64,000 bases of DNA from an uncultured Spirochaetales bacterium (GTDB taxonomy: Bacteria; Spirochaetota; GWE2-31-10; CAYYKD01). Shown piece after piece: positions 12,042-27,621 of this stretch. A program made the position numbers and the translations under genes. The stretch spans positions 65,136 to 129,135 of the forward strand of contig CAYYKD010000001.1 of NCBI GenBank assembly GCA_964471825.1, written 5' to 3'. The notes under the pieces are model-generated. The model did no database searches. It was not told where the DNA came from and worked only from the letters and a program-made list of their open reading frames with translations. Numbering within the stretch: the stretch's first letter is position 1; each line of letters begins with the position of its first letter.

Positions 12042-14180
12042 TTAATTTTCTATCATTGTAATATTTGAATTGCTGTCTATATATATCAAATTTTTCACGC
12101 CTTTCGATTTAATCATTTGTAAGACATCATCGATCGATTCTTTAATGTTCTCATCTTTGTCTTTTAACTGATAAAAATCGTAACCGTATCCCAGATATGG
12201 CTTTTCATTTTTATATGGCAATCCATCAATCAAAGCAATACCTGTTAATGCAGGGATTAAAAAAGGGATCGATTTTGCTTCGAGAAGACTCCAGTACGGA
12301 TTATTTCTTTCAATGTAGATGTAAAGATTTGATTTTTGCTTTAGATTGAATGCATCGGTATAATTTTTGATAGTCATCAATAAACTATAGCTTGGTAAAT
12401 TCAACATGCCGTCTCTCTTAACTGACATTGCTTTTATTAACAAAGGTAAACTTTTTTGTTGCAGAGATTTTTTTATTGAATCCTTAAGTGATATAACACC
12501 TACTTTTTCAATTATGCTTTGTTTTAAATTAGAAGAAGTATGATTTAGTGCAAAAATCTCGTTATTTATGTTATATATTGAAAAAAACAATGCTAATGCC
12601 AACAAAAAAAGATAGATTTGAGAAAATCTTAAACTGCTTCGAGATATTACCATGGTGTTTTTGTCAACCTGAAATTTTATCAGGCTCTCAAGTTTAAATG
12701 ACATTGCAATCAATAACGAAAGCGAGAACCATATTTGAAAATCAGAAAAATATCCGGCACTACCCCCACCAATTTTTAATACCAGGCCAGGTAACAATCC
12801 AACAGAAACAAAGATTAATAAGATCTCACAATCAAGAAATGATTTTTTTAACACCACTTCCTTTAATGAAACCATTGTAGTTTTTTTTCTGATATACAAA
12901 TAGAGAATTGATCCAAAGCAGTACATAAGCAAGAAAATAACCGGATTAACAGAGGTGTATCTGCGGATAAAACTGAATAATTCAAAGACTTTTTCATCAG
13001 CTAAAATCCACAACTTATATGTAAAATACGCAGTTAACAAATTAATTAATAGTGCGACTATATTAATAAAATCTGTATACATCTTAAGACGAATGAAAAC
13101 CCATAAAATTACAGGTATCATAATAATCAGAAGTGATATCTTAGATATTCCAATACAAAAAAGCAGGATAGGAAAAACAATTAGAATTGATATATAATAG
13201 AATAGGTTCTTTTTCCTTAGAATAATATTATCATATATAACTACTGAAATACTTAGAAATAGAAATGTTAATATTAATGAAATAAGATATGACTCGCTTC
13301 GTAAAATTGAGTCCCATCGGAGTGCAGATTTATTGAGTATTAATTTTGGCAATATCCCGGCAAAACCGGCAATTAATAACATAAGCATGACAACTATGTT
13401 CCTTTTTTTATCAGAATAAAATCGGTCAATTATATTAAATGTAAAAATAAAAAAAGACTTAATAAATAGTGGAATAAATAGTATTGGATAAACTACATTA
13501 TAAAAGAACAAGGCATCACAGTTAATTATATTAGATATCATTGCAAAGAGATAGTGACTTCCAATGTGATATTGGAGTGGAACAACTCCATCTAGACCTG
13601 TACTCGGTATTCCATATGTTTTAATCATATTCATTATTGAAGAATGAAAAACTGTATCAATATGAAATTTTCCGAGTGCAATCTTTTCAAGATACAATAT
13701 ATTATGATAATTACCACCCCATATTACAGCTGCCATAAACACACCAAATAAAGTCATGATTAACGAAACAATCACGGTATAGAAGATGTTTCCATTTGAC
13801 ATATAGTAAAAAAGATAAACAATAATTGGTATGAACGAAATTACAGCGAAGATAGTTAGTATTATGTTTAAGATGGGGTTGTTTATATAACCCGCTACAA
13901 ATAACAGTAAAATAAATATAAATGTAAACAGCCCGGCTTTATTTATATGACTATGCTTTCTTAATATTACTATAGAAAACTCAATGACATTTATTGCAAA
14001 CAACGAAAGTACAATAGAAACAAGCACCTGTCTAAAATTATCAATATATCCGATTTTCAATTTCAAATAAATAAAAACGAGAATACAGGCAATTAAACTC
14101 GGAAATAAATTTGTCAGAAGTAACCTTTTTTTAAAACTGTCTGGTGAATTATGTTCTAAATTATTCATCTTTAACCTCAT
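12042..14180 (-). CDS. Large polytopic membrane protein (712 aa, more than 12 predicted TM helices, C-terminal ~200-aa soluble domain), function unknown
   Basis: Very hydrophobic Ile/Leu/Phe-rich sequence. No transporter signature recognised. Heads a same-strand run: membrane protein, truA, Maf-like, WD40-caspase. Confidence 0.5.
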   Translation of the reverse strand: MRLKMNNLEHNSPDSFKKRLLLTNLFPSLIACILVFIYLKLKIGYIDNFRQVLVSIVLSLFAINVIEFSIVILRKHSHINKAGLFTFIFILLLFVAGYINNPILNIILTIFAVISFIPIIVYLFYYMSNGNIFYTVIVSLIMTLFGVFMAAVIWGGNYHNILYLEKIALGKFHIDTVFHSSIMNMIKTYGIPSTGLDGVVPLQYHIGSHYLFAMISNIINCDALFFYNVVYPILFIPLFIKSFFIFTFNIIDRFYSDKKRNIVVMLMLLIAGFAGILPKLILNKSALRWDSILRSESYLISLILTFLFLSISVVIYDNIILRKKNLFYYISILIVFPILLFCIGISKISLLIIMIPVILWVFIRLKMYTDFINIVALLINLLTAYFTYKLWILADEKVFELFSFIRRYTSVNPVIFLLMYCFGSILYLYIRKKTTMVSLKEVVLKKSFLDCEILLIFVSVGLLPGLVLKIGGGSAGYFSDFQIWFSLSLLIAMSFKLESLIKFQVDKNTMVISRSSLRFSQIYLFLLALALFFSIYNINNEIFALNHTSSNLKQSIIEKVGVISLKDSIKKSLQQKSLPLLIKAMSVKRDGMLNLPSYSLLMTIKNYTDAFNLKQKSNLYIYIERNNPYWSLLEAKSIPFLIPALTGIALIDGLPYKNEKPYLGYGYDFYQLKDKDENIKESIDDVLQMIKSKGVKNLIYIDSNSNITMIEN

Positions 14181-14478: not shown

Positions 14479-14507
14479 TTGATATTTAACAAATTTTTAG
14501 TTATAAT
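14479..14507 (+). promoter_or_regulatory. Near-consensus sigma-70 promoter for the adenylate cyclase gene (TTGATA-17-TATAAT)
   Basis: ttgata at 14479-14484, 17-nt spacer, tataat at 14502-14507. About 31 nt upstream of ATG 14539 with AGGTG RBS. Confidence 0.55.
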
Positions 14508-14538: not shown

Positions 14539-16245
14539 ATGCAAAAATTAGTTGATAGAATATTTGGCGTTAAGATAAACAAAACTAGGGTTCGACCATT
14601 AGTGGTCAAGATATTACTTCTGTTTATAGTATTTATTCTTGCATCAAATTTTGCATCCAACTATATAAACTTGATATTTAACCGTGCGGAGATGGTAAAC
14701 AGACTTAAAGAATCATTAATTAAAGATCTAAAAACAATTTATAACTATGCTAATTCGCAATTTGAGATATTTCAGTTTAATAATGACATTAAGGCGGCTA
14801 TGGCCAATATCGAGTCTAGATCTAAACTTGATTTTACCTTGCAAAAATCTGTCCTACTTGCAGTTAAAGAAAATGGTGAGTACCTTGCTCAAAGCTATAA
14901 TTATGATAAGGAGATCTACTTTACAGATAAAGCTGCTCTAGAGCAGATGATTAGCAGTAGAGAAGCCTCTATAAATGAAGATTTTATATATTTTAGATAC
15001 GGTAAGAGTAAGTATTACGGCGTATATAAGTACAACCCCAACTGGAACTCCTACATTATCCGAGGTGAAGAGGTAAATGAGTTCTATAAAAGATCTAACG
15101 ACATATTTCTTATTGTCTCTCTGATAATTCTTATTATGACGATTGCCTCATCCATAGTAGGTGCAATGCTGATAAGCTTTATTTTAAGGTTTATTCATAC
15201 CATTACTAAACAGATTATGGATATGCTAGACAATCAAAAGCTTGGAATCATAGATCTTCAGGGTGCAACTAATGATGATGTAACATTCCTTGGTGTTGCA
15301 TTTAATTCACTTTCCAGTACAATAAGCAATCTGATGAACATATTCCTCAAATTTGTTAATAAGGATATTGCAAATAAGGCATATAAGGATAAAGAGATTA
15401 GACTTGAAGGCTCTAAAAAAGATCTTACAGTACTCTTTTCAGATATCAGAAGTTTTACATTTATGACTGAAACTCTTGGTATTGACATTATTAAGCTGCT
15501 GAATCTTCACTATGAAAGTGCAATTCACTATATCAGCCTTCATGAGGGACTTGTCGGTTCAATAATAGGTGATGCACTTCTCGCTGTCTACGGAGCCCTC
15601 GATGAGATTAGTGAGAACAAATCCTACCAGGCATTAAAATCTGCCTACGATATACAGATGGTTACAGGAAACCTCAGAACCTCCATGAAAAAGATCAGGG
15701 AGGAACTGGAAAAAAAGTTCGGTGCATTGAGTGAAGAAGAAGAGAGAGTATTTAGAGCTGTACTAATTGAAGTAGGAGTCGGAATTGACGGCGGAGATGT
15801 ATTTTACGGTACAATAGGCTCAAGCAGTAGGATGACTAATACCGTAATCGGCGATAATGTTAACAGTGCCTCAAGACTTGAGGGGCTTACCAGGGTATAC
15901 AATGTACCTGTTATCTGTTCAGAATACATTAAAGACGATATTGAGAAAAATGTTAAAAACCATGGCATTAGATTTGTTGAGTTGGATACAGTTCTGGTAA
16001 AGGGAAAAACAATAGGCAGAAAAGTATTCTGGCCTATACAGGAAAAAGATTTAAATGACGGATCTAGAGAGGCAATTAATAACTTCTCTGTAGGCCTAAA
16101 AATGTATTATGCCGGCGAATGGGAGAAAAGTGTTGAATGGTTTAACAACTGCAATCTTCCTATGGCAGACGAATTTCTGGATAGAACAAAAAATTATAAA
16201 AAACCAACCGGATGGAACGGAATATGGACAATGACAACCAAGTAG
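14539..16245 (+). CDS. Membrane-anchored class III adenylate/guanylate cyclase (two TM helices flanking a periplasmic sensor region, linker, cyclase domain)
   Basis: 568 aa. Cyclase homology domain motifs LTVLFSDIRSFTFMTE, IGDALLAVYG, VGIDGGDVFYGTIGS and TVIGDNVNSASRLEGL. Confidence 0.8.
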   Translation: MQKLVDRIFGVKINKTRVRPLVVKILLLFIVFILASNFASNYINLIFNRAEMVNRLKESLIKDLKTIYNYANSQFEIFQFNNDIKAAMANIESRSKLDFTLQKSVLLAVKENGEYLAQSYNYDKEIYFTDKAALEQMISSREASINEDFIYFRYGKSKYYGVYKYNPNWNSYIIRGEEVNEFYKRSNDIFLIVSLIILIMTIASSIVGAMLISFILRFIHTITKQIMDMLDNQKLGIIDLQGATNDDVTFLGVAFNSLSSTISNLMNIFLKFVNKDIANKAYKDKEIRLEGSKKDLTVLFSDIRSFTFMTETLGIDIIKLLNLHYESAIHYISLHEGLVGSIIGDALLAVYGALDEISENKSYQALKSAYDIQMVTGNLRTSMKKIREELEKKFGALSEEEERVFRAVLIEVGVGIDGGDVFYGTIGSSSRMTNTVIGDNVNSASRLEGLTRVYNVPVICSEYIKDDIEKNVKNHGIRFVELDTVLVKGKTIGRKVFWPIQEKDLNDGSREAINNFSVGLKMYYAGEWEKSVEWFNNCNLPMADEFLDRTKNYKKPTGWNGIWTMTTK

Positions 16246-17753
16246 TTAAGCGGGACAATCCTACAAAACTTTTTCTAAAAGATACAGAGAATTTTATATC
16301 TGATTCTAAAGATCTCTACAACCTTGATACAGAGTTTGAAAAAACCAAAAAGAATAGAAATCTTAGGTACAAGATAATATTTACAACATTTGTATTGTTA
16401 CTTATCGGCATAAGTTATTTTGTTGCCTACATTGTTGAGAAGCAAAATAGAAACTTAAAAGTTTCAATAGAAGAGTTTAATGATGTAAATCTCCGCGAAA
16501 TTCTTGCAGATGCCAAAAAAAACGAAAGTGAGAAAAGCATTCTTGAGAATCAACTGAAAAATCTGCAGTATGAAATGGATAGAACAATCGATTCTCTTAA
16601 AATTCAGACTCTAAGAGAGATCGAGTCAGTACAGTTTGACTCATCAACAGATTCTATGGAACAGAAAATATCTTTTATTAGAAATAAAGAATTTGCTCTG
16701 ATTGAAAAAATCAAAAAAGAATATGAAGAAAAAATTAACGATAAAAAATTAGAAATAGAGTCTCTCGATAAAGAACTTGCCAACATTGACCAAAATAAAC
16801 TGAATAAAGCTCGTGAAACAGAGATGGTAATCAACAGTCAACAAAAGATCACTGATATGAGGCTTGATGCACAGAGAAAAACCTATGAGACTCAGATATC
16901 AGAAATAAAACAGGGTAATGTTGTCGCTTTAAGAAATACTAAAAACTATTATGAGAGACGAATTAATCTAATAAACCGGGCTCATAAAAAGGAAATTGAT
17001 GAATTAATACTAAAATTCAATCCTATCTTTCAGAATAACCTGATACAAAAGATAGCAGACACAACTGCAGATTTTGCACAGACTGATATTGATCTATTTT
17101 TCTTTGATGATAATGAGTTAAAGATCAACCTCCTGCAAGCAGACAAAGAGGGGATTCTGTCATCTTCAGATTACGAGGAAATTACACTTAGATCAACTAA
17201 ATCAAGAATGCTATCTGAGTATATCGCTGCTATCCCATTTGTCAACTCCGTACCCTTGGTACTTAAACACATTGATTTAAACACGCGTAGAGTTAGACTA
17301 TACTATGAACGATGGATAAAATCATTACTTGAAAACACACTTGAGAAGTCTAAAACAATTGAGGCAAATCTTAGCACTATAGAAAAACTTAATAGTCAAT
17401 TAGAGAATCTTGAGTCACAGAAGAGTGCAATACTTCAAGCAATTGAAGCACAATCTAAAGAAGCATTTGTGCCACCTCAAGCAGATGAAAATCTTGTAGG
17501 TTACATATTAGATAGCAAAGATATATTTAATATTAGTTTTGTATTTATTGATGACTATATACCAGGAAACTTAAAGACCTGTACGATTTATCGAAACTCT
17601 AAGGAAAAAATCGGTACTGCAGTGTTTGTTAAAAAAGGAAATAAGTTTGTATTACAACAGGGGATTCTCACAAATATTAGAAAACCTATTAGTCCATTTG
17701 ATAAAATTGTTGTGTTAAAATCCGAGCCGTCAACAAATCAGCCATTGGAGTAA
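16212..17753 (+). CDS. Membrane-anchored coiled-coil protein (513 aa), unknown function
   Basis: Overlaps the cyclase gene by 34 nt (co-transcription). Single TM segment YKIIFTTFVLLLIGISYFVAYIV, then about 300 aa of heptad-rich Glu/Lys/Leu sequence. Confidence 0.5.
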   Translation: MERNMDNDNQVVKRDNPTKLFLKDTENFISDSKDLYNLDTEFEKTKKNRNLRYKIIFTTFVLLLIGISYFVAYIVEKQNRNLKVSIEEFNDVNLREILADAKKNESEKSILENQLKNLQYEMDRTIDSLKIQTLREIESVQFDSSTDSMEQKISFIRNKEFALIEKIKKEYEEKINDKKLEIESLDKELANIDQNKLNKARETEMVINSQQKITDMRLDAQRKTYETQISEIKQGNVVALRNTKNYYERRINLINRAHKKEIDELILKFNPIFQNNLIQKIADTTADFAQTDIDLFFFDDNELKINLLQADKEGILSSSDYEEITLRSTKSRMLSEYIAAIPFVNSVPLVLKHIDLNTRRVRLYYERWIKSLLENTLEKSKTIEANLSTIEKLNSQLENLESQKSAILQAIEAQSKEAFVPPQADENLVGYILDSKDIFNISFVFIDDYIPGNLKTCTIYRNSKEKIGTAVFVKKGNKFVLQQGILTNIRKPISPFDKIVVLKSEPSTNQPLE

Positions 17754-17846
17754 AATTACACTTTTTTTTTATTATTTCTTTACTTTACTTGACTCATGAT
17801 TTTTTATCTGATATATTAAATTTTAATATGATATTTAGGGGGTTTT

Positions 17847-18788
17847 ATGATAAATTTTAGACATCTAAGGGTTTTACTGGTTCTGTTAGTGTTAATCGGG
17901 TTGAATAATGTTGTGTTTTCAGAAGAGGGGCAGACAGAGGAAAGCAAATTTGCACCCTACCTGACTCTAACAAATGAAGCGGAAGTATCTACAGCAGTTG
18001 AAGGTCAATCACTTACATTTGGTTCATTTACAAACATTGTTAATCTAGATATGGGAGTATATATTACTCTTACGGATATGATTGGTATATATCCGTATAT
18101 CGGAGTTTCTGACTTTGCAGTCTCTATGGGAAGTAACGGAATATTAGCTGATATCTACGGTATGATATATGCCGGTATCGGAACAACAATTACACCTATT
18201 GATATGCTCTCTATTAATATCGGACTTGTTAATACAGAGTTCGTAGGAATTGATAAGGTTGTATATGCAGGTTTTAGTCTCTATACAGGCATAACACTTG
18301 AAGTAGAGGCGGCTTTTATATCACTTGATATAGCTAACTATCTAAATCCACTTTTTAATAATACAACCGTGCTTCTATGGGACACCATAACCTATGAATT
18401 AACTTTCAATTTTCTAAACTTCATTAATCCTAAAATAAATACCGGTCTTTTTGTACAGGGAGAGCTATTTACAAGTAATGATTTTGCTAATGGAAGTTTT
18501 ACAGGTTTTAGTTACTCAAACGAATTATTTGCAGGTATAATAACAAATCCAATAGAGTCGTTTAAACTATATGTTTTGTTTGCAATGTACAACTATGGAG
18601 CATTTGATGATGGATATAAAGCTATCGATGGAAGATCAGATGCATTAGGTATGAAGATAGGCATGAGTTTTACACATAATTGGTTTAATGCAGAGATTAA
18701 CTACATACCTAAATTTGGAGTCTACACAGATGGCGTGATCGGTGGAACTGAGCATTGTTTTCAGGTAAATATAGGTATTACATTATAG
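17847..18788 (+). CDS. Secreted hypothetical protein (313 aa), Gly/Thr/Tyr/Phe-rich beta-type sequence
   Basis: N-terminal signal peptide MINFRHLRVLLVLLVLIGLNNVVFSEE. GGGG RBS. Confidence 0.5.
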   Translation: MINFRHLRVLLVLLVLIGLNNVVFSEEGQTEESKFAPYLTLTNEAEVSTAVEGQSLTFGSFTNIVNLDMGVYITLTDMIGIYPYIGVSDFAVSMGSNGILADIYGMIYAGIGTTITPIDMLSINIGLVNTEFVGIDKVVYAGFSLYTGITLEVEAAFISLDIANYLNPLFNNTTVLLWDTITYELTFNFLNFINPKINTGLFVQGELFTSNDFANGSFTGFSYSNELFAGIITNPIESFKLYVLFAMYNYGAFDDGYKAIDGRSDALGMKIGMSFTHNWFNAEINYIPKFGVYTDGVIGGTEHCFQVNIGITL

Positions 18789-18810
18789 CCATTAATTTCT
18801 AGGATATCTT

Positions 18811-21465
18811 TTGAACAGGACTGTTTTATTACTAATATGCCGCTCTTTTCTAAAAGGGGCGGCATTAATTATTCTAGAGGTGGCAGTAACACCTCTATTT
18901 TTATCACAGGTTTCATACTCAAAACTCCCCTCAGTCTATATAGGGATAGCAATTTTCACAATAATCTCAGGTTTGCTGTTTAGGAAGTTTGACAAAAGCA
19001 CCTCATACAGCAAACTTATATCATACACGCTATTCATTATGATATTCGTTACAGTTATTGCTATTGTTCCGGTATTGATCTCTATCAATCTCCTAACAGT
19101 ATCAATACTAATGATAGTAAAGGCCTTTTTTTGGATACTTGTAAATATTGAATTCTGGAGTGTTGCACAGGCTGTTTTAAACATAAGAGAGGGTAAAAAA
19201 TACTTTGCCCTGGTAAGCTCCGGTGAAATAGCAGCTACAATTATTATCGGTACAGTATTACTTCTTTTTTTAAATAACTCAAGTGTCTTTTTATTACTTC
19301 TTATTGTAATAGTAATCCTACTTTTCTATCTTATATCATTTATAATGATTAGGACATTAAATAAACCCTCTTTTAGAGATGATACCAACGCAATTAATGA
19401 TACCGCAAAAGTCAAAAGATCCCTATCAAAGTTATTAAACAATAAATTTATTATATTTTATTTTTTTGTGGCATTTATAAGTTCATTAGGATTCTATCTC
19501 GTGGATTTTTTATTTCTAAATCAGGCACAGAAATTTATTGCTGATGAGCTAATATTAAGAAGGTTCTTCAGTCTATTCTTTATGATTCTAGGGCTTGTGA
19601 ATTTGGTTGGAACCCTTTTTGTGTCCGGTAAGATAATCGTAAGATTGGGTATCAAAGGAATTGTAATCTTGTTGCCATTTGCAATAACACTATTAACAGG
19701 TGCATCAATTACTGCATTGTTTTGTAATCTCACATTTTTACTTTTTATTCTCGCTGTATCGTCAAAAGGGTTTGACGATGTTATAAGGGTCAATTTCGAG
19801 TACCCGTCACAAAAAATTATGCTTCAAATTGTTCCGCCAAATGAACGGTTTAGGCTCTTAGCAATTCAGGAAACACTCGTTGAGCCGATAGCTATCGGGC
19901 TTTCAGGAATTATACTGCTTCTATTATCGACCAAGACTTATTTAGTTTATATACTTCTATTAACAATAGCCGGAGTCTGGCTTAGTTTGGCATTCCTACT
20001 TAGAAAACAATACACTGTTTTTCTGATTTCATCATATAATAAAAAGAGATTTGATCCCGATCATCTTGAGTCATACGACCCCTCGATCCTTCAAATCATA
20101 GATAGAGGACTTAACAGTAAATATCCTGACGAGATTGTCTATGCAGTTAACCTTGCACAGTCCGTCTGTATAAATAAACCAGGTATGATAATAAAAAGTA
20201 AAAACCTACAGGATATATCAGTAGAACTATGGTTTGAAAATATAATAAGGCAGTGCATTAAGTCAGAAAACAAGATTCTTGTAAAATTTATCCTCGAAAA
20301 AATTAGAACGATAAAACCAAATCAGATCGAGAAAGATTTAAAAGATATTCTATCAAATCCGGCTTTTAATAACAGCCCGATTATATCAGAATGTGCTTTT
20401 ATATTGACATCTGTCTATAATGTATATGATGGATTGGATCAGATCAATACAGATGTAAAATTCAATTACTTAAACGCAGGACTTCTTGCAGGAGCATTTT
20501 GCTGTTCAGATTCGCATATCAGAGATAGGGCAACTGCCGATATATTAAGCCTGAGCGATAATGACGAACTATTTTTAAATATATTAGAAAAAATCTCGAT
20601 CAATAATAAATATAGCAACATATTTGACAACTATCTGATTGCCTACATAGAATCTAAAAATAAGAACCATGTAAGACAGGCAATAAGAATTGGTGGTTTA
20701 GTATCAATTAACTATCTCTATGATAAATTCGAAAAAATCGCTGATGATGTCAAACTCTACAAACCGCTTATACGGGCAGTCTCCGGTAATCAGATCAAGC
20801 TGGAGGCTCTGTTTAAACGGCTTCATGGATTAAACGATATTCTACATTCAAGGAAGGAATATGCTCTGTGTAAAATAGCCGGTTACATAGAGACCAAGAT
20901 CATCCAAACTATACTTGTTTTGATGTCATCAAGTGTTGGACTTTTAAATCGATATTTTTTATATGAATCATTTAGAAAAGTTGTTATACGGGATGGTCTT
21001 ATTGTTTCTAAAAGTGAAGTGTATAGATTAATCTCCGATGAAGTTAAAACAGGCATTTCAAAGCAAACTTTCTTACTAAGACTTAAAAATCTCAATCTTG
21101 ATTATCAAGTTCATGACTTACTAATCAACTCATTTCAATCGGAAATTGCACTTCACAAAAGGTTCGTATTTCAGCTTCTCTCAGTATTGTATAATCCGAA
21201 CACAATTATGAAAATAGAGAACGAGTTTTTTTATAGACACTCAAATAGACAGGCACTTGCGATAGAATCCCTTGAGTCATTGTTGGCCTCTGATTTAAAA
21301 AAGGAAATAATTCCATTTATTGAAGGGACGAATCCAAATGAAGTGGGAAACCACTTTGACCTTACAAGTTCGGTTGATTTGATAAATCATCTGGATAAAT
21401 TTTTAAGTGAAACAGATATTTCACCGCTTACAGTTTTGCTGATAGAAAGAATTATAGAAAAATAA
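18811..21465 (+). CDS. Fusion protein: N-terminal ~12-TM transporter-like domain (MFS/TLC nucleotide-translocase-like) plus C-terminal ~470-aa helical repeat (HEAT/ARM-like) domain
   Basis: 884 aa. First ~410 aa are hydrophobic with regularly spaced TM helices. The remainder is a soluble Leu/Ile-rich helical repeat region. Immediately followed by a cNMP-binding protein gene. Confidence 0.45.
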   Translation: MNRTVLLLICRSFLKGAALIILEVAVTPLFLSQVSYSKLPSVYIGIAIFTIISGLLFRKFDKSTSYSKLISYTLFIMIFVTVIAIVPVLISINLLTVSILMIVKAFFWILVNIEFWSVAQAVLNIREGKKYFALVSSGEIAATIIIGTVLLLFLNNSSVFLLLLIVIVILLFYLISFIMIRTLNKPSFRDDTNAINDTAKVKRSLSKLLNNKFIIFYFFVAFISSLGFYLVDFLFLNQAQKFIADELILRRFFSLFFMILGLVNLVGTLFVSGKIIVRLGIKGIVILLPFAITLLTGASITALFCNLTFLLFILAVSSKGFDDVIRVNFEYPSQKIMLQIVPPNERFRLLAIQETLVEPIAIGLSGIILLLLSTKTYLVYILLLTIAGVWLSLAFLLRKQYTVFLISSYNKKRFDPDHLESYDPSILQIIDRGLNSKYPDEIVYAVNLAQSVCINKPGMIIKSKNLQDISVELWFENIIRQCIKSENKILVKFILEKIRTIKPNQIEKDLKDILSNPAFNNSPIISECAFILTSVYNVYDGLDQINTDVKFNYLNAGLLAGAFCCSDSHIRDRATADILSLSDNDELFLNILEKISINNKYSNIFDNYLIAYIESKNKNHVRQAIRIGGLVSINYLYDKFEKIADDVKLYKPLIRAVSGNQIKLEALFKRLHGLNDILHSRKEYALCKIAGYIETKIIQTILVLMSSSVGLLNRYFLYESFRKVVIRDGLIVSKSEVYRLISDEVKTGISKQTFLLRLKNLNLDYQVHDLLINSFQSEIALHKRFVFQLLSVLYNPNTIMKIENEFFYRHSNRQALAIESLESLLASDLKKEIIPFIEGTNPNEVGNHFDLTSSVDLINHLDKFLSETDISPLTVLLIERIIEK

Positions 21466-21480
21466 ACAAAGGATAATTAT

Positions 21481-21921
21481 ATGCAGGATATAGAAAAAAT
21501 TTTAATATTGAAAACCGTATCAATTTTTTCGGAAGTTCCCGAGATCTATCTTGGAGAAATCGCCGGTTTAATTGAGGAAGTTGAGCTGGAGGATGGCGAT
21601 CAAATTATCACAAAAGGTGAAATTGGTACAGAGATGTTTATAATTGTATCAGGTGCTGTAATAATCTATGATGGATCAACAGAGCTTGCTGTATTAAATG
21701 AGAGGGCTGTCTTTGGTGAACTTGCCGCTCTATCGCCTGAGCCTAGAATTGCATCAGCAAGAGCCTCAGGTGATACACTTCTATTTAAAATATGCGGCGA
21801 TGATCTATTTGAGTTAATAACAGACAATACAGATATGGTAAGAGGGCTTGTGAAATACTTAATCAATGAGATGCGCAGAGTCTACAACATTATAAACCTG
21901 GCAGCTATTGAAAATAAATAA
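21481..21921 (+). CDS. Stand-alone cyclic-nucleotide-binding (CAP/Crp-type cNMP-binding) domain protein
   Basis: 146 aa. GDQIITKGEIGTEMFIIVSGAV and FGELAALSPEPRIASARA match the cNMP-binding beta-barrel and phosphate-binding cassette (FGELAL...R.A.A). No DNA-binding HTH. Confidence 0.75.
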   Translation: MQDIEKILILKTVSIFSEVPEIYLGEIAGLIEEVELEDGDQIITKGEIGTEMFIIVSGAVIIYDGSTELAVLNERAVFGELAALSPEPRIASARASGDTLLFKICGDDLFELITDNTDMVRGLVKYLINEMRRVYNIINLAAIENK

Positions 21922-22016
21922 AACTATAAAAAAAGGTGAGGCTATCATTGATTTAATCGTTTTTTTAAGATTAAAAAATTGATAAATCAATAATTATTCG
22001 CCTCACACATATCATC

Positions 22017-23732
22017 TTATTTGACTAACATTATATCCCATTTATAACTAATCGCTAAATAGATGCCTGCGTCATTCTTAAATATGCCTATTTTATCTTT
22101 CTCGTTTTGAATTATTGAATCAATGTAATCATTGTTTTCACTTCCATCATTTACTATCTGTTTCATGTACTGATCTACCTGTTTGTACTTAACCCATGAG
22201 AAAAACAGATTTGCACCAACTACGATTTTTAAGGACTCAAAAGGCTCAACAGCGAACTCTGTGTTTAAATACAGGCTTCCATATCGCTCCTCGTGACTAT
22301 AATCATAGAGAAGAGGTATTGTATAGACCGCACTAAATGATGGTTTCAATTTTACAGGTCCTGCATAGAATGGAAACTCGGCAAATATTGCCAAACCCTG
22401 CTCAAAACCGGCCTGATAAAGCCCCATCTGATCAGTGATCGCTCTGTAATAGTATTTTTCCATGTAGGATTTGTCATGGGTCTTAGAATTTTCCGGCAAA
22501 CCGTCCTTGTAGTCGCTATAAAAACCTGTGTCAAAACCCGGGATAAATTCCCCAAGATACTGAATATTAAAGTAGAAATCCCTGTCAGGACCAAATCTAT
22601 AATCAAAACCGGTTACAAATGAAAGTTTGTGATTTCTAATCTTGTATGAACTTAGATCATAGTCCTCAGTCATCATATATGAACCCTCAAGCCAAAATCC
22701 AAAGTCATCAATCACTGTTTTAAAATCAGCATTTATTCTATGAACTCGCTTTCTTTCAAGTGTCATCTTCTCGATTCGATAAAGGGCATAAGGTCCCGCG
22801 AGAGGAATGTTAAATAGGTCTCTGGCCATAGTTATAGTCGGTGTATAGTACTGATCAAAATCATAGATATACCCAAACGAAAACTCTGTCTTTGGAACTC
22901 TGAAATTTAGTTTAGCACCAATAACAGGTCTTGACAGATCAAATTTGTAGTTTTTTTCATCTATATTTTTAGCATGGATCACTGTCCCGGGTATATCAAA
23001 TGGATCTGATGTACTGTCATTTGACATTCCATAGAACAAGGCCTGTGGCACATTGTCTTTAAAATCAACAGGAAATGCACTTTCCTGATAGAATGGCACA
23101 TAGACAACCTCAACTTTAAATTGATCAACCGGCTCAAATGAAGTAACGAGACTTAAAACTGACATTTTATCTGCATCAACTCCGGTAGAAAAGTCGCGTG
23201 GATTAAGCATGTCGGATGGGTTTATCTTATCAGCTGTTCCCCACTGATGGTAGATGTAACCTGCCTTGATATTAAACTTCCATAGATTAAAACCTATATA
23301 GTTTTCAAGTGGAACAACTTCTATGTTATCCGTACTAAATCCCTTGCTATCCAATTTTATTGCAATATTCCAATTAGACACTAGATATATCAGACTTATA
23401 TTACTCTTTATAAATTCATAGCTAAGTCCAATCTCATTATCGAAGTCAATTCTTCTGATATTTCCTTCAAGTACCTGATGATCGGGTATAACAGGAATAT
23501 AGAAGTTAAATGATGACTCTCCAAACAGCTTAAACTCGTGCTTCATGTCTGTACTGTTATTGCTTGTTTTAGAATTTTTTGCATCGTCATTATTCGAACC
23601 ATTCAAGCCTGTGTCACCTGAACTACCTGTTTTTCCAAAGAGGTCGCTGTAATCATCGGCTGCAACAAAACCTGTTGAAACCATCACAAAAATTGTTAAC
23701 AATAGGCTAAAAAATATATTAGTATTTTTCAT
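22017..23732 (-). CDS. Secreted DUF1302-like outer-membrane-associated protein, partner of the MMPL transporter cassette
   Basis: 571 aa. Signal peptide. Aromatic-rich beta-type sequence. Position downstream of the LolA-like and MMPL genes mirrors the HAE3-RND / DUF1329 / DUF1302 arrangement. Confidence 0.4.
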   Translation of the reverse strand: MKNTNIFFSLLLTIFVMVSTGFVAADDYSDLFGKTGSSGDTGLNGSNNDDAKNSKTSNNSTDMKHEFKLFGESSFNFYIPVIPDHQVLEGNIRRIDFDNEIGLSYEFIKSNISLIYLVSNWNIAIKLDSKGFSTDNIEVVPLENYIGFNLWKFNIKAGYIYHQWGTADKINPSDMLNPRDFSTGVDADKMSVLSLVTSFEPVDQFKVEVVYVPFYQESAFPVDFKDNVPQALFYGMSNDSTSDPFDIPGTVIHAKNIDEKNYKFDLSRPVIGAKLNFRVPKTEFSFGYIYDFDQYYTPTITMARDLFNIPLAGPYALYRIEKMTLERKRVHRINADFKTVIDDFGFWLEGSYMMTEDYDLSSYKIRNHKLSFVTGFDYRFGPDRDFYFNIQYLGEFIPGFDTGFYSDYKDGLPENSKTHDKSYMEKYYYRAITDQMGLYQAGFEQGLAIFAEFPFYAGPVKLKPSFSAVYTIPLLYDYSHEERYGSLYLNTEFAVEPFESLKIVVGANLFFSWVKYKQVDQYMKQIVNDGSENNDYIDSIIQNEKDKIGIFKNDAGIYLAISYKWDIMLVK

Positions 23733-23741
23733 AGTCCACCT

Positions 23742-24503
23742 CTACTTATCTAATGCTGCTACAGAAAAAACAGTATCGCTCAGTCCGGTATTTACCTTAA
23801 CACCTGTTAACTCAAGGAGCGTCTTCGTGTTGTCTTTCAGGTTATCAAAAACCGTCTTGGTCGGAATAATCACCCCGTCAATAACCTTCACCTCAACGAT
23901 AACTATCCTCTTTATTAATTCATCACTTTTTGAGTCATAACATTCCATTCTATATAGAAAATCATCTTTCTTGCTAATCCAGACAACAGCCCTTGAGTAA
24001 GGTGAGCCGGTATCAACGCTTCTTAACTCTACAACCGAATAATCAACACCATTTAAGGTCTCATCCTTGATGTATCTATATGAAAAATCATCATATTCTC
24101 GACTCTCAAGGTCATAGTATAGAATATCTGAGTTAACAAAACGACCATTCTTACCTGATGACGAGATCAATCTTACCTTCTTCATTGTAGGCAGGTAGAT
24201 CCGTTGTTCCTCAACTCCGTTTTTTGTTACCGATAAAAATTTTGTACCGCTGACATCGGCCGGTTCCATAAACCTGATAAATGTGCCTGTATATGCCTTT
24301 GTTTCCTTAGCGAACATCTCGAGTTTTCGAGATCTCTTATTACCTGACTTGTCAATCAATGTCATAGCTGCAACCGCTGACATATCATTACTTTTCTTTA
24401 AACCAAAAGTTTTTCGGCCAATCTCCTCTCCCTTCGCATCCCCAAATACACTCATACAAACCATCAAAACTAAAATAACCAGTAAATACCTTGTTTTTTT
24501 CAT
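23742..24503 (-). CDS. Outer-membrane lipoprotein-sorting (LolA-like) family protein
   Basis: 253 aa. Signal peptide (MKKTRYLLVILVLMVCMSVFG). Size and beta-rich composition are typical of LolA-like proteins encoded beside MMPL transporters. Confidence 0.5.
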   Translation of the reverse strand: MKKTRYLLVILVLMVCMSVFGDAKGEEIGRKTFGLKKSNDMSAVAAMTLIDKSGNKRSRKLEMFAKETKAYTGTFIRFMEPADVSGTKFLSVTKNGVEEQRIYLPTMKKVRLISSSGKNGRFVNSDILYYDLESREYDDFSYRYIKDETLNGVDYSVVELRSVDTGSPYSRAVVWISKKDDFLYRMECYDSKSDELIKRIVIVEVKVIDGVIIPTKTVFDNLKDNTKTLLELTGVKVNTGLSDTVFSVAALDK

Positions 24504-24576
24504 ACAATTACCCCTTTTTTATTTATTTTTTATTCTTTATTCTTTTTTTTTCTTTCTTTTTTATCATAAGTTATAG

Positions 24577-26949: not shown

Positions 26950-27006
26950 CTTATATCTCCTTTTGCAAATGACTGACTAGTCAATCATCTATATTTTTTA
27001 AAAAAA

Positions 27007-27621
27007 CTAAACCGTTATCAGGCTCATTATTTTTGATAATGAACTCTGCAAATCTTCCTCTGTTAACTTACTGTCAGATAGAATATCCCTTTTCCAGACA
27101 GTCTCTGTAAACCCAAATATTAGCGTTGATGCAAATCTTACATCAATCTCCTTCAACTCGATCTCCTTCTTTTTTATACCCCAATTAATAATTGTACTTA
27201 TGCTTGAGATGATCCTCTCAAATATCTCATCAAGAATCCGCTTGATATTGCGATCCTCAAGCTCAGAGAATGCCTTATAGATAATTCTATAAATTCCCTC
27301 TGTTTCTTTCCGTCTATTATAGAAGTTTTTGACTATAATAGTCAGATTTTCTGAGATTCTATTTAACTCACTTACATTTTCAAAGTAGATTGCCGCCATC
27401 TTATCCCCAATGCTCAAGATTACTTCCGTAAATATCTCCTGCTTGCTCTTAAAGTAGAGATAGATAGTACCCTGAGCAACACCGGCCTCTTTTGCAATCA
27501 TTGCTGTTTTCATTGACTGATAGTTCTCTGTTGATAGCACCTTTATTGCTGATTCTATAATTAGGTTTTTTTTATCATCCGACATTTTACGCTCCGAATT
27601 TATGACTGATTGGTCATTCAT
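27007..27621 (-). CDS. TetR/AcrR-family transcriptional regulator
   Basis: 204 aa. N-terminal HTH MKTAMIAKEAGVAQGTIYLYFKSKQEIF is typical of TetR_N. Directly upstream of the MMPL gene on the same strand. Confidence 0.85.
   Translation of the reverse strand: MNDQSVINSERKMSDDKKNLIIESAIKVLSTENYQSMKTAMIAKEAGVAQGTIYLYFKSKQEIFTEVILSIGDKMAAIYFENVSELNRISENLTIIVKNFYNRRKETEGIYRIIYKAFSELEDRNIKRILDEIFERIISSISTIINWGIKKKEIELKEIDVRFASTLIFGFTETVWKRDILSDSKLTEEDLQSSLSKIMSLITV

What the first reader, a model, noticed from the sequence alone, without database searches (positions are those of the whole stretch)
14539..21921. Five-gene plus-strand cAMP-signalling cluster: membrane adenylate cyclase, overlapping coiled-coil membrane protein, secreted protein, transporter-HEAT fusion, cNMP-binding protein
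A class III cyclase with an extracytoplasmic sensor region is driven by a near-consensus promoter. It overlaps the next ORF by 34 nt. Four genes downstream there is a 146-aa stand-alone cNMP-binding domain with no output domain. A producer and a receptor of cyclic nucleotide in one transcription unit suggests a self-contained second-messenger module. The cNMP-binding protein may gate the upstream transporter-HEAT protein.
Basis: partly seen in the sequence, partly recalled or inferred. Interest (0 to 1): 0.55.

Follow-up and report, generated by a model that had tools for sequence, protein, structure and literature searches.

The report
Cyclase pair beside cAMP-gated NTT-HEAT transporter
The five genes are real, but they are two separately conserved gene modules that happen to sit side by side in this spirochaete: a membrane sensor cyclase with its overlapping partner, and an already-described but uncharacterised transporter (NTT-HEAT) with its detached cyclic-nucleotide-binding subunit.

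Summary
All five plus-strand ORFs exist at the stated coordinates, and the domain calls hold. They are a class III cyclase, a bitopic helical protein, a signal-peptide protein, a transporter with an alpha-solenoid tail, and a 146-aa cNMP-binding protein.

The cluster is not one conserved unit.
- Genes 1-2 are a widespread spirochaetal pair with a conserved 22-nt overlap. In four relatives the pair is followed by unrelated genes.
- Genes 3-5 recur as a trio in the only close relative found, with no cyclase within 10 kb.

Genes 4-5 belong to the NTT-HEAT / cNBD family described bioinformatically by Major, Embley and Williams in 2017. Its function is still unknown. In 18 of 60 loci from other phyla the same cNBD is fused to the transporter, and in 42 it is split off as here.

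The link to the cyclase is weaker.
- Against: it is not conserved in close relatives, and this cyclase family has Ser in place of the adenine-specifying Lys.
- For: adenylate cyclases of four different architectures sit directly beside NTT-HEAT/cNBD modules in Desulfobacterales and Bacteroidota (p≈4e-5, uncorrected for phylogeny).

Verdict: a new member of a known but uncharacterised kind, of moderate interest.

The parts
14479..14507 (+). Sigma-70-like promoter match TTGATA-17-TATAAT, 32 nt upstream of the cyclase ATG
   Evidence: 11 of 12 matches. The number of such matches in the region equals the shuffle expectation, so it is suggestive only. An AGGTG Shine-Dalgarno-like motif lies 8 nt before the ATG.
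14539..16245 (+). Membrane sensor class III nucleotidyl cyclase (568 aa). Layout: TM1 about aa 21-45; periplasmic PAS/Cache-like alpha/beta domain about aa 46-188; TM2 about aa 189-223; low-confidence HAMP-like linker about aa 224-285; catalytic domain aa 288-500; C-terminal helical tail aa 507-552.
   Evidence: Pfam PF00211. PDB alignments to Cya2, bPAC and CyaC. AF2 model with pLDDT 78.5. Foldseek finds CyaC/CyaB/PAC with TM about 0.75-0.82. TM prediction. Catalytic residues: D302, D345, N442, R446 present; specificity positions are S341 and T435. More than 2500 full-length homologues at 52-69% identity; the ones that carry a source name are mostly labelled Spirochaetota.
16212..17753 (+). 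Bitopic membrane protein (513 aa from the first ATG; the conserved start is probably ATG 16224, giving 509 aa). It has a short cytoplasmic N-terminus, one TM (aa 55-73) and a long, charged, helical periplasmic region. It is the conserved partner of the cyclase.
   Evidence: homologues at 43, 29 and 24% identity always directly downstream of the cyclase orthologue. (conserved 22-nt overlap). (TM, composition, periodicity). No Pfam family.
17789..17817 (+). Promoter-like site TTGACT-17-TATATT with extended TG, in the 93-nt gap between gene 2 and gene 3. It is a candidate separate promoter for the trio.
   Evidence: In the relative L002/L005 the trio starts after a divergent intergenic region, so it must have its own promoter there.
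17847..18788 (+). Signal-peptide protein (313 aa), probably an outer-membrane beta-barrel. It is a lineage-specific upstream partner of NTT-HEAT.
   Evidence: The N-terminal hydrophobic segment is followed by ...VVFS/EEG. It is 47-51% identical and in the same position in L002/L005. The family is small: 32 representatives among 1.84 billion proteins. OMP hints are weak only. One member each hits OMP_b-brl at 2e-7, Porin_10 at 1e-4 and Channel_Tsx at 3e-3, and the profile hits OmpX at E 0.16.
18811..21465 (+). NTT-HEAT protein (884 aa, TTG start). It has an N-terminal 12-helix NTT/TLC-type MFS transporter domain (aa 1-412) and a C-terminal HEAT-like alpha-solenoid (aa 424-884).
   Evidence: homologues carrying PF03219, HEAT and PF00027. 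(TLC at 21.4 bits against a cut-off of 21). (AF2 model, pLDDT 79). (the top five Foldseek hits are the AtNTT1 and C. pneumoniae NTT1 ATP/ADP translocators). (family profile against CpNTT1 at 1e-28 and alphaRep/HEAT at 2e-51).
18837..18897 (+). Two hairpins inside the first 90 nt of the NTT-HEAT ORF: a 13-bp stem at 18837-18865, then an 8-bp stem plus U-run at 18875-18897. This is a possible attenuator or processing site.
   Evidence: (z = -5.6). The same 13-bp stem occurs in L005 at 7393-7421, with one compensatory C-G to U-A change, although the two proteins are only 36% identical.
21481..21921 (+). Stand-alone cyclic-nucleotide-binding protein (146 aa). It is the detached regulatory subunit of NTT-HEAT.
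   Evidence: Pfam PF00027. PDB hits to PKG, PKA-R and CNG channels. G79, E80 and R89 are invariant. It is 72% identical in L002 and 42-49% identical to the fused cNBDs of P0004. It has its own AAGGA ribosome-binding site, 15 nt after the NTT-HEAT stop.
21936..22006 (.). Long hairpin between the convergent cNBD gene and the minus-strand 571-aa gene. It is a candidate bidirectional terminator marking the end of the plus-strand unit.
   Evidence: -22.4 kcal/mol, z = -5.1. The simple terminator scan did not flag it.

Best explanation
The region holds two independently conserved modules placed next to each other.

Module A is genes 1-2. Gene 1 is a spirochaetal membrane sensor cyclase with a periplasmic PAS/Cache-like domain, two TM segments, a HAMP-like linker and a class IIIb-like catalytic domain. 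Gene 2 is a bitopic, largely periplasmic helical protein that is translationally coupled to it through a conserved 22-nt overlap. It most likely modulates or supplies the periplasmic input of the cyclase (inferred).

Module B is genes 3-5. Gene 4 is an inner-membrane NTT-type MFS transporter with a cytoplasmic HEAT solenoid. Gene 5 is its detached cNMP-binding subunit. Gene 3 is a probable outer-membrane beta-barrel, found upstream only in this spirochaete lineage.

Proposed mechanism (inferred). The 146-aa cNBD binds a cyclic nucleotide, most likely cAMP, through its intact Gly-Glu...Arg cassette. It docks on the HEAT solenoid and switches transport by the NTT domain on or off. This is the same job the domain does when it is fused to the C-terminus in other phyla. 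The substrate is unknown. A nucleotide or related anionic metabolite is the default guess, from the NTT fold.

The neighbouring cyclase may supply the ligand (my estimate is about 0.4). However, the two modules are not an obligate unit and probably have separate promoters.
For: Shown:
- ORFs and domains.
- Module A recurs as a pair in L085/86, L087 and L089/90 with the same 22-nt overlap and with different downstream genes.
- Module B recurs as a trio in L002/L005 at 47, 36 and 72% identity, without a cyclase within 10 kb.
- There is no other synteny between the window and those loci.
- The cNBD is orthologous to the fused cNBDs.
- Among 60 loci from at least six phylum-level groups, 42 are split and 18 are fused.
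- The NTT fold and the solenoid are supported.
- The cyclase catalytic residues are intact and the fold matches.
- An internal promoter-like site lies in the 93-nt gap.

Published precedent: NTT-HEAT with an adjacent or fused cNBD is described in PMC5381601, and the Arthrospira NIES39_A00950 architecture in PMC2853384.

Support for a possible cyclase link:
- Cyclase genes sit at position -1 or +2/+3 next to the module in 13 of the fetched loci, counting L084 by Pfam only. They occur in one of 422 more distant flank genes, the second cyclase of L050 at +3 (12 of 245 near genes; Fisher p 4e-5).
- They come in four different architectures.
Against: - No experiment on any NTT-HEAT protein was found in the searched literature. 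Transport and gating are therefore inference from homology and domain fusion.
- HEAT repeats are not detected by Pfam in this protein itself.
- The outer-membrane assignment of gene 3 rests on weak hits, and no structure could be predicted with an alignment.
- All genes are co-oriented with short gaps, so read-through co-transcription from the cyclase promoter remains possible.
- The enrichment test for cyclases is not corrected for shared ancestry. It represents about 4-6 independent lineages.
- The cyclase family has Ser341 instead of the adenine-binding Lys, so its product is uncertain.
Confidence: 0.6

Rival explanations
1. All five genes form one operon that is a dedicated, self-contained second-messenger circuit. 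The sensor cyclase makes cAMP in response to a periplasmic cue, the cNBD protein reads it locally, and it gates the transporter-HEAT protein.
For: - The genes are co-oriented, with small gaps (-22/-34, 93, 22 and 15 nt) and no recognised terminator between them.
- The cNBD-to-transporter link is strongly supported.
- Adenylate cyclases of four architectures lie directly beside NTT-HEAT/cNBD modules in Desulfobacterales, Cytophagales and Chitinophagales.
- There is precedent for linked cyclase and cNBD-receptor genes: XC_0250/XC_0249 in Xanthomonas (PMC3770947, listed).
Against: - The five-gene arrangement was found only in this genome.
- The cyclase pair stands without the trio in four relatives, and the trio without a cyclase in the closest relative.
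- The cyclase is a vertically conserved spirochaetal gene (more than 2500 homologues), whereas close NTT-HEAT relatives are very rare (2 clusters).
- An internal promoter-like site lies before gene 3.
- The cyclase has Ser at the Lys specificity position, unlike every module-linked cyclase examined.
Confidence: 0.3
2. The module maintains or secretes the second messenger itself. In this model NTT-HEAT exports (or imports) the cyclic nucleotide, and the cNBD senses the cytoplasmic level and opens the exporter. The cyclase provides synthesis, an HD phosphohydrolase (in Bacteroidota) provides degradation, and the transporter provides efflux. Together they set cNMP levels or release cAMP as an extracellular signal.
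For: - In Bacteroidota the module is followed by a conserved HD-domain gene of about 195 aa (18 of 127 downstream neighbours) and then a REC-cyclase. Synthesis, a candidate hydrolase, a receptor and a nucleotide-type transporter therefore co-localise.
- NTT proteins carry nucleotides (family knowledge; structures 9j3l-9j3o listed).
- An outer-membrane partner is present here.
- The Arthrospira genome paper links its NTT-cNBD protein to responses to external cAMP.
Against: - It is entirely inferential. No NTT is known to carry cyclic nucleotides.
- The HD gene is generic and is absent from this window.
- The substrate-binding residues were not mapped.
Confidence: 0.1
3. A Pycsar-like anti-phage system, in which a class III-like cyclase makes a cyclic (pyrimidine) nucleotide on infection and a cNBD effector kills or arrests the cell.
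For: - PADLOC PycC models match the cyclase (E 1.5e-12), and PycTIR effector models match the cNBD (E 1e-11).
- The non-canonical Ser at the base-specifying position leaves the nucleotide open.
Against: - The PADLOC scores (45 and 42 bits) are no better than the generic Pfam domain scores (53.5 and 59 bits).
- No TIR or pore-forming effector domain is fused to the cNBD.
- The cyclase is a TM sensor protein conserved at 52-69% identity across many homologues, mostly labelled Spirochaetota, in housekeeping contexts.
- The cNBD/NTT-HEAT module is a widespread chromosomal family.
- No phage or defence-island genes lie nearby.
Confidence: 0.02
4. The cNBD-fold protein does not bind a cyclic nucleotide. 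Many CRP/FNR-type domains bind other ligands or none, so it may serve as a constitutive structural subunit of NTT-HEAT, and the adjacent cyclase would be irrelevant.
For: - The residue after the cassette Arg is Ile (PRIASA), not the usual Ser, Thr or Ala.
- No ligand data exist for any member.
Against: - Gly79, Glu80 and Arg89 of the phosphate-binding cassette are invariant in split and fused homologues.
- The best PDB matches are bona fide cGMP- and cAMP-binding domains of PKG and PKA-R (E 1e-23 to 1e-14).
- AC-type cyclases recur beside the module in other phyla.
Confidence: 0.08

Closest known systems
NTT-HEAT and NTT-HEAT-cNBD proteins (Major, Embley & Williams 2017, Genome Biol Evol, PMC5381601); Arthrospira platensis NIES39_A00950 (PMC2853384)
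   Same: - An N-terminal NTT/TLC transporter domain and a C-terminal HEAT-type solenoid.
- A cNBD gene a few nucleotides downstream, 15 nt here.
- The cNBD is orthologous to the domain that is fused in other members.
- The same published hypothesis that cAMP tunes transport.
   Different: - This member is very divergent. It is 16-22% identical to the typical members and 34-36% to its single close relative, Pfam HEAT is not detected, and TLC is at the cut-off.
- It comes from a Spirochaetales-like MAG lineage.
- It is preceded by a lineage-specific signal-peptide (probable OMP) gene and, in this genome only, by a sensor cyclase pair.
- The 2017 paper did not report cyclase or HD-gene adjacency.
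Characterised NTT ATP/ADP translocators (Chlamydia pneumoniae NTT1, Arabidopsis AtNTT1; PDB 9j3j-9j3o)
   Same: They are the best structural matches of the transporter domain (Foldseek E 2e-5, TM 0.60-0.70 on the target). The family profile matches CpNTT1 at E 1e-28.
   Different: - Only 13-17% identity.
- The characterised NTTs have no HEAT tail and no cNBD.
- Conservation of the nucleotide-binding residues was not mapped, so the substrate is unknown.
Class IIIb adenylate cyclases (Spirulina CyaC, P. aeruginosa CyaB, bPAC/OaPAC) and Synechocystis Cya2
   Same: - The catalytic fold (TM 0.75-0.82).
- Both metal Asp, and the transition-state Asn and Arg.
- Thr at the second specificity position, as in class IIIb.
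   Different: - Ser341 replaces the adenine-binding Lys (Glu in the guanylate cyclase Cya2). It is conserved in at least 90% of 62 family members.
- There is a long helical insert at about aa 361-408.
- The protein has a periplasmic PAS/Cache-like sensor and an overlapping partner gene.
Linked cyclase / cNBD-receptor gene pairs, e.g. Xanthomonas XC_0250 (cGMP cyclase) and XC_0249 (cNBD-GGDEF) (PMC3770947)
   Same: The producer and the receptor of a cyclic mononucleotide are encoded close together.
   Different: - There the receptor carries its own output domain and the pair is a functional unit shown by genetics.
- Here the receptor has no output domain, its effector is a transporter, and the producer-receptor adjacency is not conserved in close relatives.
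Pycsar (PycC cyclase plus cNBD-TIR/TM effector)
   Same: Class III-like cyclase and cNBD domains are encoded in one neighbourhood, and PADLOC gives domain-level hits.
   Different: There is no toxic effector domain, no defence-island context, and a vertically conserved sensor cyclase. It is not a member.

Membership tests
Class III nucleotidyl cyclase (PF00211) | Catalytic-domain profile match above the curated cut-off | tested here: met
   53.5 bits against a cut-off of 21.9, aa 293-491.
Class III nucleotidyl cyclase (PF00211) | Two metal-binding Asp, plus the transition-state Asn and Arg | tested here: met
   D302, D345, N442 and R446 align with Cya2, bPAC and CyaC. They are invariant or at least 90% conserved in 62 homologues.
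Class III adenylate cyclase (substrate ATP) | Lys at the first base-specifying position (KxxGD), with Asp or Thr at the second | tested here: not met
   The first position is Ser341 (GSIIGD), conserved in at least 90% of the family. The second is Thr435. All nine comparison cyclases next to NTT-HEAT modules have Lys. The product is therefore uncertain.
Class III nucleotidyl cyclase (PF00211) | Catalytic fold | tested here: met
   The AF2 model (pLDDT 78.5) matches CyaC, CyaB and Cya2 with TM 0.7-0.82.
Class III nucleotidyl cyclase (PF00211) | Cyclase activity in vitro | not testable with these tools
   Needs an enzyme assay.
NTT / TLC nucleotide transporter (PF03219) | Profile match to the TLC family | tested here: inconclusive
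   There is no hit on the full protein. The N-terminal 420 aa alone score 21.4 bits against a cut-off of 21, covering only profile positions 161-371. A family profile that includes this protein hits CpNTT1 at 1e-28. Single-sequence phmmer against the PDB finds nothing.
NTT / TLC nucleotide transporter (PF03219) | 12-helix MFS-type fold closest to the solved NTTs | tested here: met
   The AF2 model has about 12 long helices in aa 3-412. The top five Foldseek PDB hits are AtNTT1 and CpNTT1, ahead of other MFS proteins.
NTT / TLC nucleotide transporter (PF03219) | Conserved nucleotide-binding residues and nucleotide transport | not tested
   Residue mapping onto 9j3l/9j3n was not done, and transport needs an experiment.
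NTT-HEAT(-cNBD) clade (Major et al. 2017) | NTT domain fused C-terminally to a HEAT-repeat domain | tested here: met
   Full-length homology (98% coverage, E 6e-41) to P0004, which carries TLC, HEAT and cNMP Pfam domains. An AF2 all-alpha solenoid spans aa 424-884. The family profile matches alphaRep/HEAT at 2e-51. Caveat: Pfam HEAT models do not hit this protein itself.
NTT-HEAT(-cNBD) clade (Major et al. 2017) | A cNBD gene immediately downstream (or fused) that is orthologous to the fused cNBD | tested here: met
   A 15-nt gap with its own ribosome-binding site. 42-49% identity to the two cNBDs of P0004. 42 split and 18 fused loci.
Cyclic-nucleotide-binding domain (PF00027) | Profile match, plus the phosphate-binding cassette Gly-Glu...Arg | tested here: met
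   59.3 bits against a cut-off of 27.5. F78-G79-E80...P88-R89 are present, with G79, E80 and R89 invariant in 7 split or fused domains.
Cyclic-nucleotide-binding domain (PF00027) | Binding of cAMP or cGMP | not testable with these tools
   Needs ITC, DRaCALA or similar.
Outer-membrane beta-barrel protein (gene 3) | Signal peptide, a beta-barrel profile or fold, and a C-terminal hydrophobic or aromatic residue | tested here: inconclusive
   A signal-peptide-like N-terminus is present. There is no Pfam hit for this protein. Of 32 relatives, one each hits OMP_b-brl, Porin_10 and Tsx, weakly. The profile matches OmpX at E 0.16. The family ends in F, L or I. No structure prediction was possible with an alignment.
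HAMP domain (cyclase linker) | PF00672 profile match | tested here: not met
   No HAMP hit even at E up to 5. There is only a motif-level resemblance (…VTFLGVAFNSLSSTISNL…), and the AF2 segment at aa 243-282 has low confidence.
Pycsar defence system | PycC cyclase plus an effector in which the cNBD is fused to a TIR or membrane-disrupting domain, in a defence context | tested here: not met
   There are only generic domain-level PADLOC hits. The cNBD has no fused effector. The context is housekeeping.

The most novel reading that the evidence does not exclude
NTT-HEAT with its cNBD is a widespread, non-transcriptional cAMP effector of bacteria. In at least three phyla it sits inside a local cAMP circuit. 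The circuit has an adenylate cyclase of varying input type directly adjacent. In Bacteroidota it also has an HD phosphohydrolase, and in this spirochaete lineage an outer-membrane channel. In this reading cAMP directly gates the uptake or release of a nucleotide-like metabolite, possibly the cyclic nucleotide itself, across the envelope. The window would then be one instance in which a periplasmic signal is wired to transport through a cyclase with an unusual Ser/Thr specificity pair.
Probability: 0.25. Interest if true: 0.7.

Novelty: new member of a known kind. Interest (0 to 1): 0.36.

Why it matters
- NTT-HEAT proteins occur in many free-living bacteria, in Chlamydia and in oomycetes, and none has been characterised. 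Direct gating of a transporter by cAMP would be a bacterial cAMP output that bypasses CRP-type transcription factors.
- This locus adds little that is fundamentally new about the family. The comparative work does give three testable leads.
  - AC-type cyclases, and an HD gene, recurrently flank the module in other phyla.
  - A small family of probable outer-membrane proteins is coupled to it in one spirochaete lineage.
  - A very conserved spirochaetal sensor cyclase family carries Ser instead of the adenine-binding Lys, and always has an overlapping periplasmic partner gene.
- It is also a caution for scan-based operon inference. Co-oriented, tightly spaced genes with matching 'producer' and 'receptor' domains can be two juxtaposed modules.

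Tried and rejected
- In-frame split. The cNBD ORF is in the same frame as NTT-HEAT, separated by one TAA, which suggested read-through or a recent nonsense split. Rejected: it has its own ribosome-binding site, the split form is common, and only 12 of 42 split loci are in frame, which equals the 1/3 expected by chance.
- Pycsar-like defence. Rejected; see the rival explanations.
- Genome scan with a 7-sequence cNBD alignment failed for lack of a conserved stretch. It was repeated with 4 sequences.
- The window's own genome is not among the GTDB representatives. The best hit is a 72%-identical 'uncultured Spirochaetales' MAG.
- The metagenome scan with the gene-3 family found only one distant locus (L094, 27% identity), and there the gene is not next to an NTT-HEAT.
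- I tried to show that the 69% cyclase orthologue (P0022) and the trio relative (P0002) come from the same genome. The NCBI record was not returned. They co-occur in ENA assembly ERZ27262924 and have similar G+C (0.34 and 0.36), but a shared genome is not proven.
- Single-sequence PDB search with the transporter half found nothing.
- Upstream neighbours of the module in 55 loci show no common partner family apart from the four Desulfobacterales cyclases.
- The Rfam scan of the window found nothing.
- Literature searches for functional work on NTT-HEAT or cNBD found only the 2017 survey and papers citing it.

Full report
**1. Observation**

The ORF list reproduces the five plus-strand ORFs exactly:
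- 14539-16245 (568 aa)
- 16212-17753 (513 aa)
- 17847-18788 (313 aa)
- 18811-21465 (884 aa, TTG start)
- 21481-21921 (146 aa)

Pfam confirms a class III cyclase domain in gene 1 (PF00211, aa 293-491, E 2.9e-14). It also confirms a cNMP-binding domain in gene 5 (PF00027, aa 34-115, E 3.8e-16). Gene 4 gets only a sub-threshold MFS_1 hit, and genes 2 and 3 have no family.

However, promoter-like sites in this AT-rich stretch are exactly as frequent as in shuffles, 43 found against 42.7 expected.

The surrounding genes are ordinary chromosomal genes: PlsX, TruA, an MptE-like protein, a hybrid histidine kinase and FlhF/FlhG-like proteins. A convergent minus-strand operon encodes an unknown 571-aa protein, a LolA-like/TP_0789-like protein, an MMPL/HAE3 RND pump and a TetR regulator. 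Rfam finds nothing in the window.

**2. Gene 4 and gene 5: an NTT-HEAT transporter and its detached cNBD**

Gene 4 has only two close clusters in 5.8 billion proteins: itself, and P0002 at 36% identity. Its distant full-length homologues carry Pfam TLC/NTT (PF03219), HEAT and, in several, a C-terminal cNMP-binding domain. Examples are P0004, P0010, P0011 and P0014. JGI names one of them 'CRP-like cAMP-binding protein/ATP/ADP translocase'.

Direct tests of gene 4 give the following.
- The N-terminal 420 aa scanned alone just reach the TLC cut-off, 21.4 bits against 21.
- An AF2 model built on 13 homologues (pLDDT 79) shows about 12 long helices at aa 3-412, followed by about 26 short helices forming a solenoid.
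- Its five best PDB matches are the 2025 structures of the Arabidopsis and Chlamydia pneumoniae NTT1 ATP/ADP translocators, ahead of all other MFS transporters.
- A profile of the family hits CpNTT1 at 1e-28 and designed HEAT (alphaRep) proteins at 2e-51.

Gene 5 starts 15 nt after the gene-4 stop and has its own AAGGA ribosome-binding site. It is 42-49% identical to the two fused cNBDs of P0004. The alignment of split and fused domains keeps G79, E80 and R89 of the phosphate-binding cassette invariant. Its best solved relatives are true cGMP- and cAMP-binding domains of PKG and PKA-R.

A scan of one genome per species with the cNBD alignment returned 80 loci. They come from Desulfobacterales, Chitinophagales, Cytophagales, Anaerolineae, Spirochaetota, Acidobacteriota and others. 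My ORF and phmmer analysis shows 60 loci with both parts. Eighteen are fusions of 1036-1281 aa. Forty-two are split, with the cNBD gene of about 135-160 aa usually -4 to +50 nt from the transporter gene. The fact that genes 4 and 5 share a reading frame here is chance, since 12 of 42 split loci do so.

This is the family described by Major, Embley and Williams (2017, PMC5381601). [quoted passage not shown] They also noted NTT-HEAT-cNBD fusions, and proposed cAMP control of transport. No member has been characterised. The Arthrospira genome paper had noted the same architecture in 2010.

It is also already in the literature.

**3. Gene 3**

Gene 3 has a signal-peptide-like N-terminus. It is conserved directly upstream of NTT-HEAT in the single close relative, at 47-51% identity (L002/L005, an 'uncultured Spirochaetales' MAG).

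An exhaustive HMMER search finds only 32 representatives, all about 300-370 aa. Their alignment shows a signal peptide, an acidic linker and alternating hydrophobic patterns, ending in F, L or I.

The only family hints are outer-membrane barrels:
- one member each hits OMP_b-brl at 2e-7, Porin_10 at 1e-4 and Tsx at 3e-3;
- the profile matches OmpX at E 0.16.

I read it as a probable outer-membrane beta-barrel that is lineage-specific. It is absent from the other 79 loci, and in the one distant metagenomic relative it is not next to an NTT-HEAT.

**4. Genes 1 and 2: a separate conserved pair**

The cyclase has more than 2500 homologues. The best 120 are full length at 51-69% identity. Only some carry a source name, and those names are mostly Spirochaetota/Spirochaetia, with single Bacteroidota and Firmicutes labels.

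In loci at 69, 62 and 58% identity, the cyclase is always followed by a homologue of gene 2, at 43, 29 and 24% identity. The start codon of that gene lies inside the cyclase's conserved Ile-Trp codons (ATATGG). This gives the same 22-nt overlap in all four genomes. In the window that start is ATG 16224. The 34-nt figure belongs to an upstream in-frame ATG.

What follows the pair differs each time: an AP endonuclease, a dNK/thymidylate-kinase-like gene, or an unknown 266-aa gene. It is never gene 3, 4 or 5. Conversely, the trio in L002 has no cyclase within 10 kb. Apart from the two modules, the 64-kb window shares no synteny with those loci.

Gene 2 has one TM segment (aa 55-73) with a basic N-terminal flank, so its large C-terminal part is probably periplasmic. 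The stretch at about aa 85-230 is Pro/Gly-free and 43-52% charged or Gln. Clear heptad periodicity appears only at about aa 358-420.

The cyclase model (pLDDT 78.5) has this order: TM1, a long helix, a small alpha/beta (PAS/Cache-like) periplasmic domain, TM2, a low-confidence linker, the catalytic domain, and a helical tail. The catalytic domain matches CyaC, CyaB, the PACs and Cya2.

Catalytic residues in the cyclase:
- D302, D345, N442 and R446 are present and conserved.
- The base-specifying pair is Ser341/Thr435 rather than Lys/Thr or Lys/Asp.
- Ser341 is at least 90% conserved in 62 homologues.

The enzyme therefore looks active, but its nucleotide is not certain.

**5. Is the juxtaposition meaningful?**

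Evidence against a dedicated circuit:
- The arrangement was seen only in this genome.
- The two modules travel independently.
- The 93-nt gap before gene 3 holds a promoter-like site with an extended -10 (17789-17817).
- In the relative, the trio must have its own promoter.

Evidence for a functional link comes from the 80 loci.
- Pfam scans of the two genes on each side of the module found Guanylate_cyc in 4 upstream and 9 downstream neighbours. They also found an HD-domain gene of about 195 aa in 18 downstream neighbours.
- By position, cyclases occur only at -1 (4 loci), +2 (8 loci) and +3 (1 locus). That is 12 of 245 near genes, against 1 of 422 more distant flank genes (the second cyclase of L050 at +3). 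Fisher p is 4e-5.
- They have four architectures: Zn-ribbon-HAMP-cyclase, REC-cyclase, HNOBA-like-cyclase and TPR-cyclase. This argues for several independent recruitments, although the test is not corrected for shared ancestry.
- All of these cyclases carry Lys plus Thr or Asp, which is the adenylate cyclase type. This suggests that the cNBD family reads cAMP. The window's cyclase, with Ser, is the odd one out.

I put the probability that this cyclase is the main ligand source for this cNBD at about 0.4.

**6. Rivals**

A Pycsar-like defence system is rejected. The PADLOC hits are generic domain matches, no toxic effector domain is present, and the context is housekeeping. A ligand-free cNBD is unlikely, given the intact cassette. 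A role of the transporter in cNMP efflux and homeostasis is speculative, but the evidence does not exclude it.

**7. Verdict**

The receptor-transporter link is strong, but it is already published as a hypothesis. The single self-contained five-gene operon is not supported by conservation.

The locus is a divergent new member of the known, uncharacterised NTT-HEAT/cNBD family, lying next to a conserved spirochaetal sensor-cyclase pair.

The most useful by-products are these:
- cyclase and HD genes are enriched around the module in other phyla;
- a probable outer-membrane partner family accompanies the module in this lineage;
- the cyclase family carries a conserved Ser at the Lys specificity position;
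- a conserved hairpin lies at the 5' end of the NTT-HEAT ORF.

Noticed in passing
window 18837-18897; L005 7393-7460: A 13-bp hairpin lies 26 nt inside the NTT-HEAT ORF, followed by a second hairpin plus U-run. The first stem is preserved in the 36%-identical relative, with one compensatory C-G to U-A change and one U-G to U-A change. The fold z-scores are -5.6 and -4.2. It may be an intragenic attenuator or processing site that sets the ratio of gene 3 to gene 4 expression.
   Followed up: partly
L031, L035, L036, L048-L050, L052, L054, L055, L057, L069, L072-L076, L078, L080, L084 (about 10.4-11.0 kb in full-length loci): In Bacteroidota the NTT-HEAT/cNBD module is followed on the opposite strand by a conserved HD-domain gene of about 195 aa (18 of 127 downstream neighbours). 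In 9 loci a REC-, HNOBA-like- or TPR-cyclase follows that. Together these form a possible local cAMP synthesis, degradation and receptor neighbourhood, which the 2017 survey did not mention.
   Followed up: partly
window 15559-15561 (codon of Ser341) and alignment A7: The whole spirochaetal cyclase family (62 sampled, 52-69% identical) has Ser where class III adenylate cyclases have the adenine-binding Lys and guanylate cyclases have Glu. The second specificity position is an invariant Thr. The product nucleotide of this abundant family is therefore an open question.
   Followed up: partly
window 16212-16245; L085 11686-11707; L087 1700-1721; L089 11686-11707: The start codon of gene 2 is embedded in the cyclase's conserved Ile-Trp codons (ATATGG). 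It gives an identical 22-nt overlap in four genomes that are 58-69% identical, which is a fixed translational-coupling junction.
   Followed up: yes
window 21936-22006: A long imperfect hairpin (-22.4 kcal/mol, z -5.1) lies between the convergent cNBD gene and the minus-strand 571-aa gene. It is a candidate bidirectional terminator that the simple terminator scan missed.
   Followed up: partly
window 22017-27621 (minus strand): An operon encodes an unknown 571-aa signal-peptide protein, a LolA-like/TP_0789-like protein, an MMPL/HAE3-family RND transporter and a TetR regulator. It is probably a lipid or hydrophobe export system, unrelated to the finding and not syntenic in the relative.
   Followed up: no
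window 6760-9666 (minus strand): A 968-aa protein combines N-terminal WD40 repeats with a C-terminal caspase-like Peptidase_C14 domain.
   Followed up: no
window 12042-14180 (minus strand): A 712-aa polytopic membrane protein with no Pfam or NCBIfam match lies divergent from the cyclase, in the lowest-GC stretch of the window (0.29).
   Followed up: no
L006, L010, L011, L013, L015 (Desulfobacterales): Here the NTT-HEAT proteins are about 1270-1330 aa, the length of fused forms such as P0004 that carry two cNBDs. They are still followed by a separate cNBD gene of about 140-150 aa, so some lineages may combine fused and detached cNBDs.
   Followed up: no
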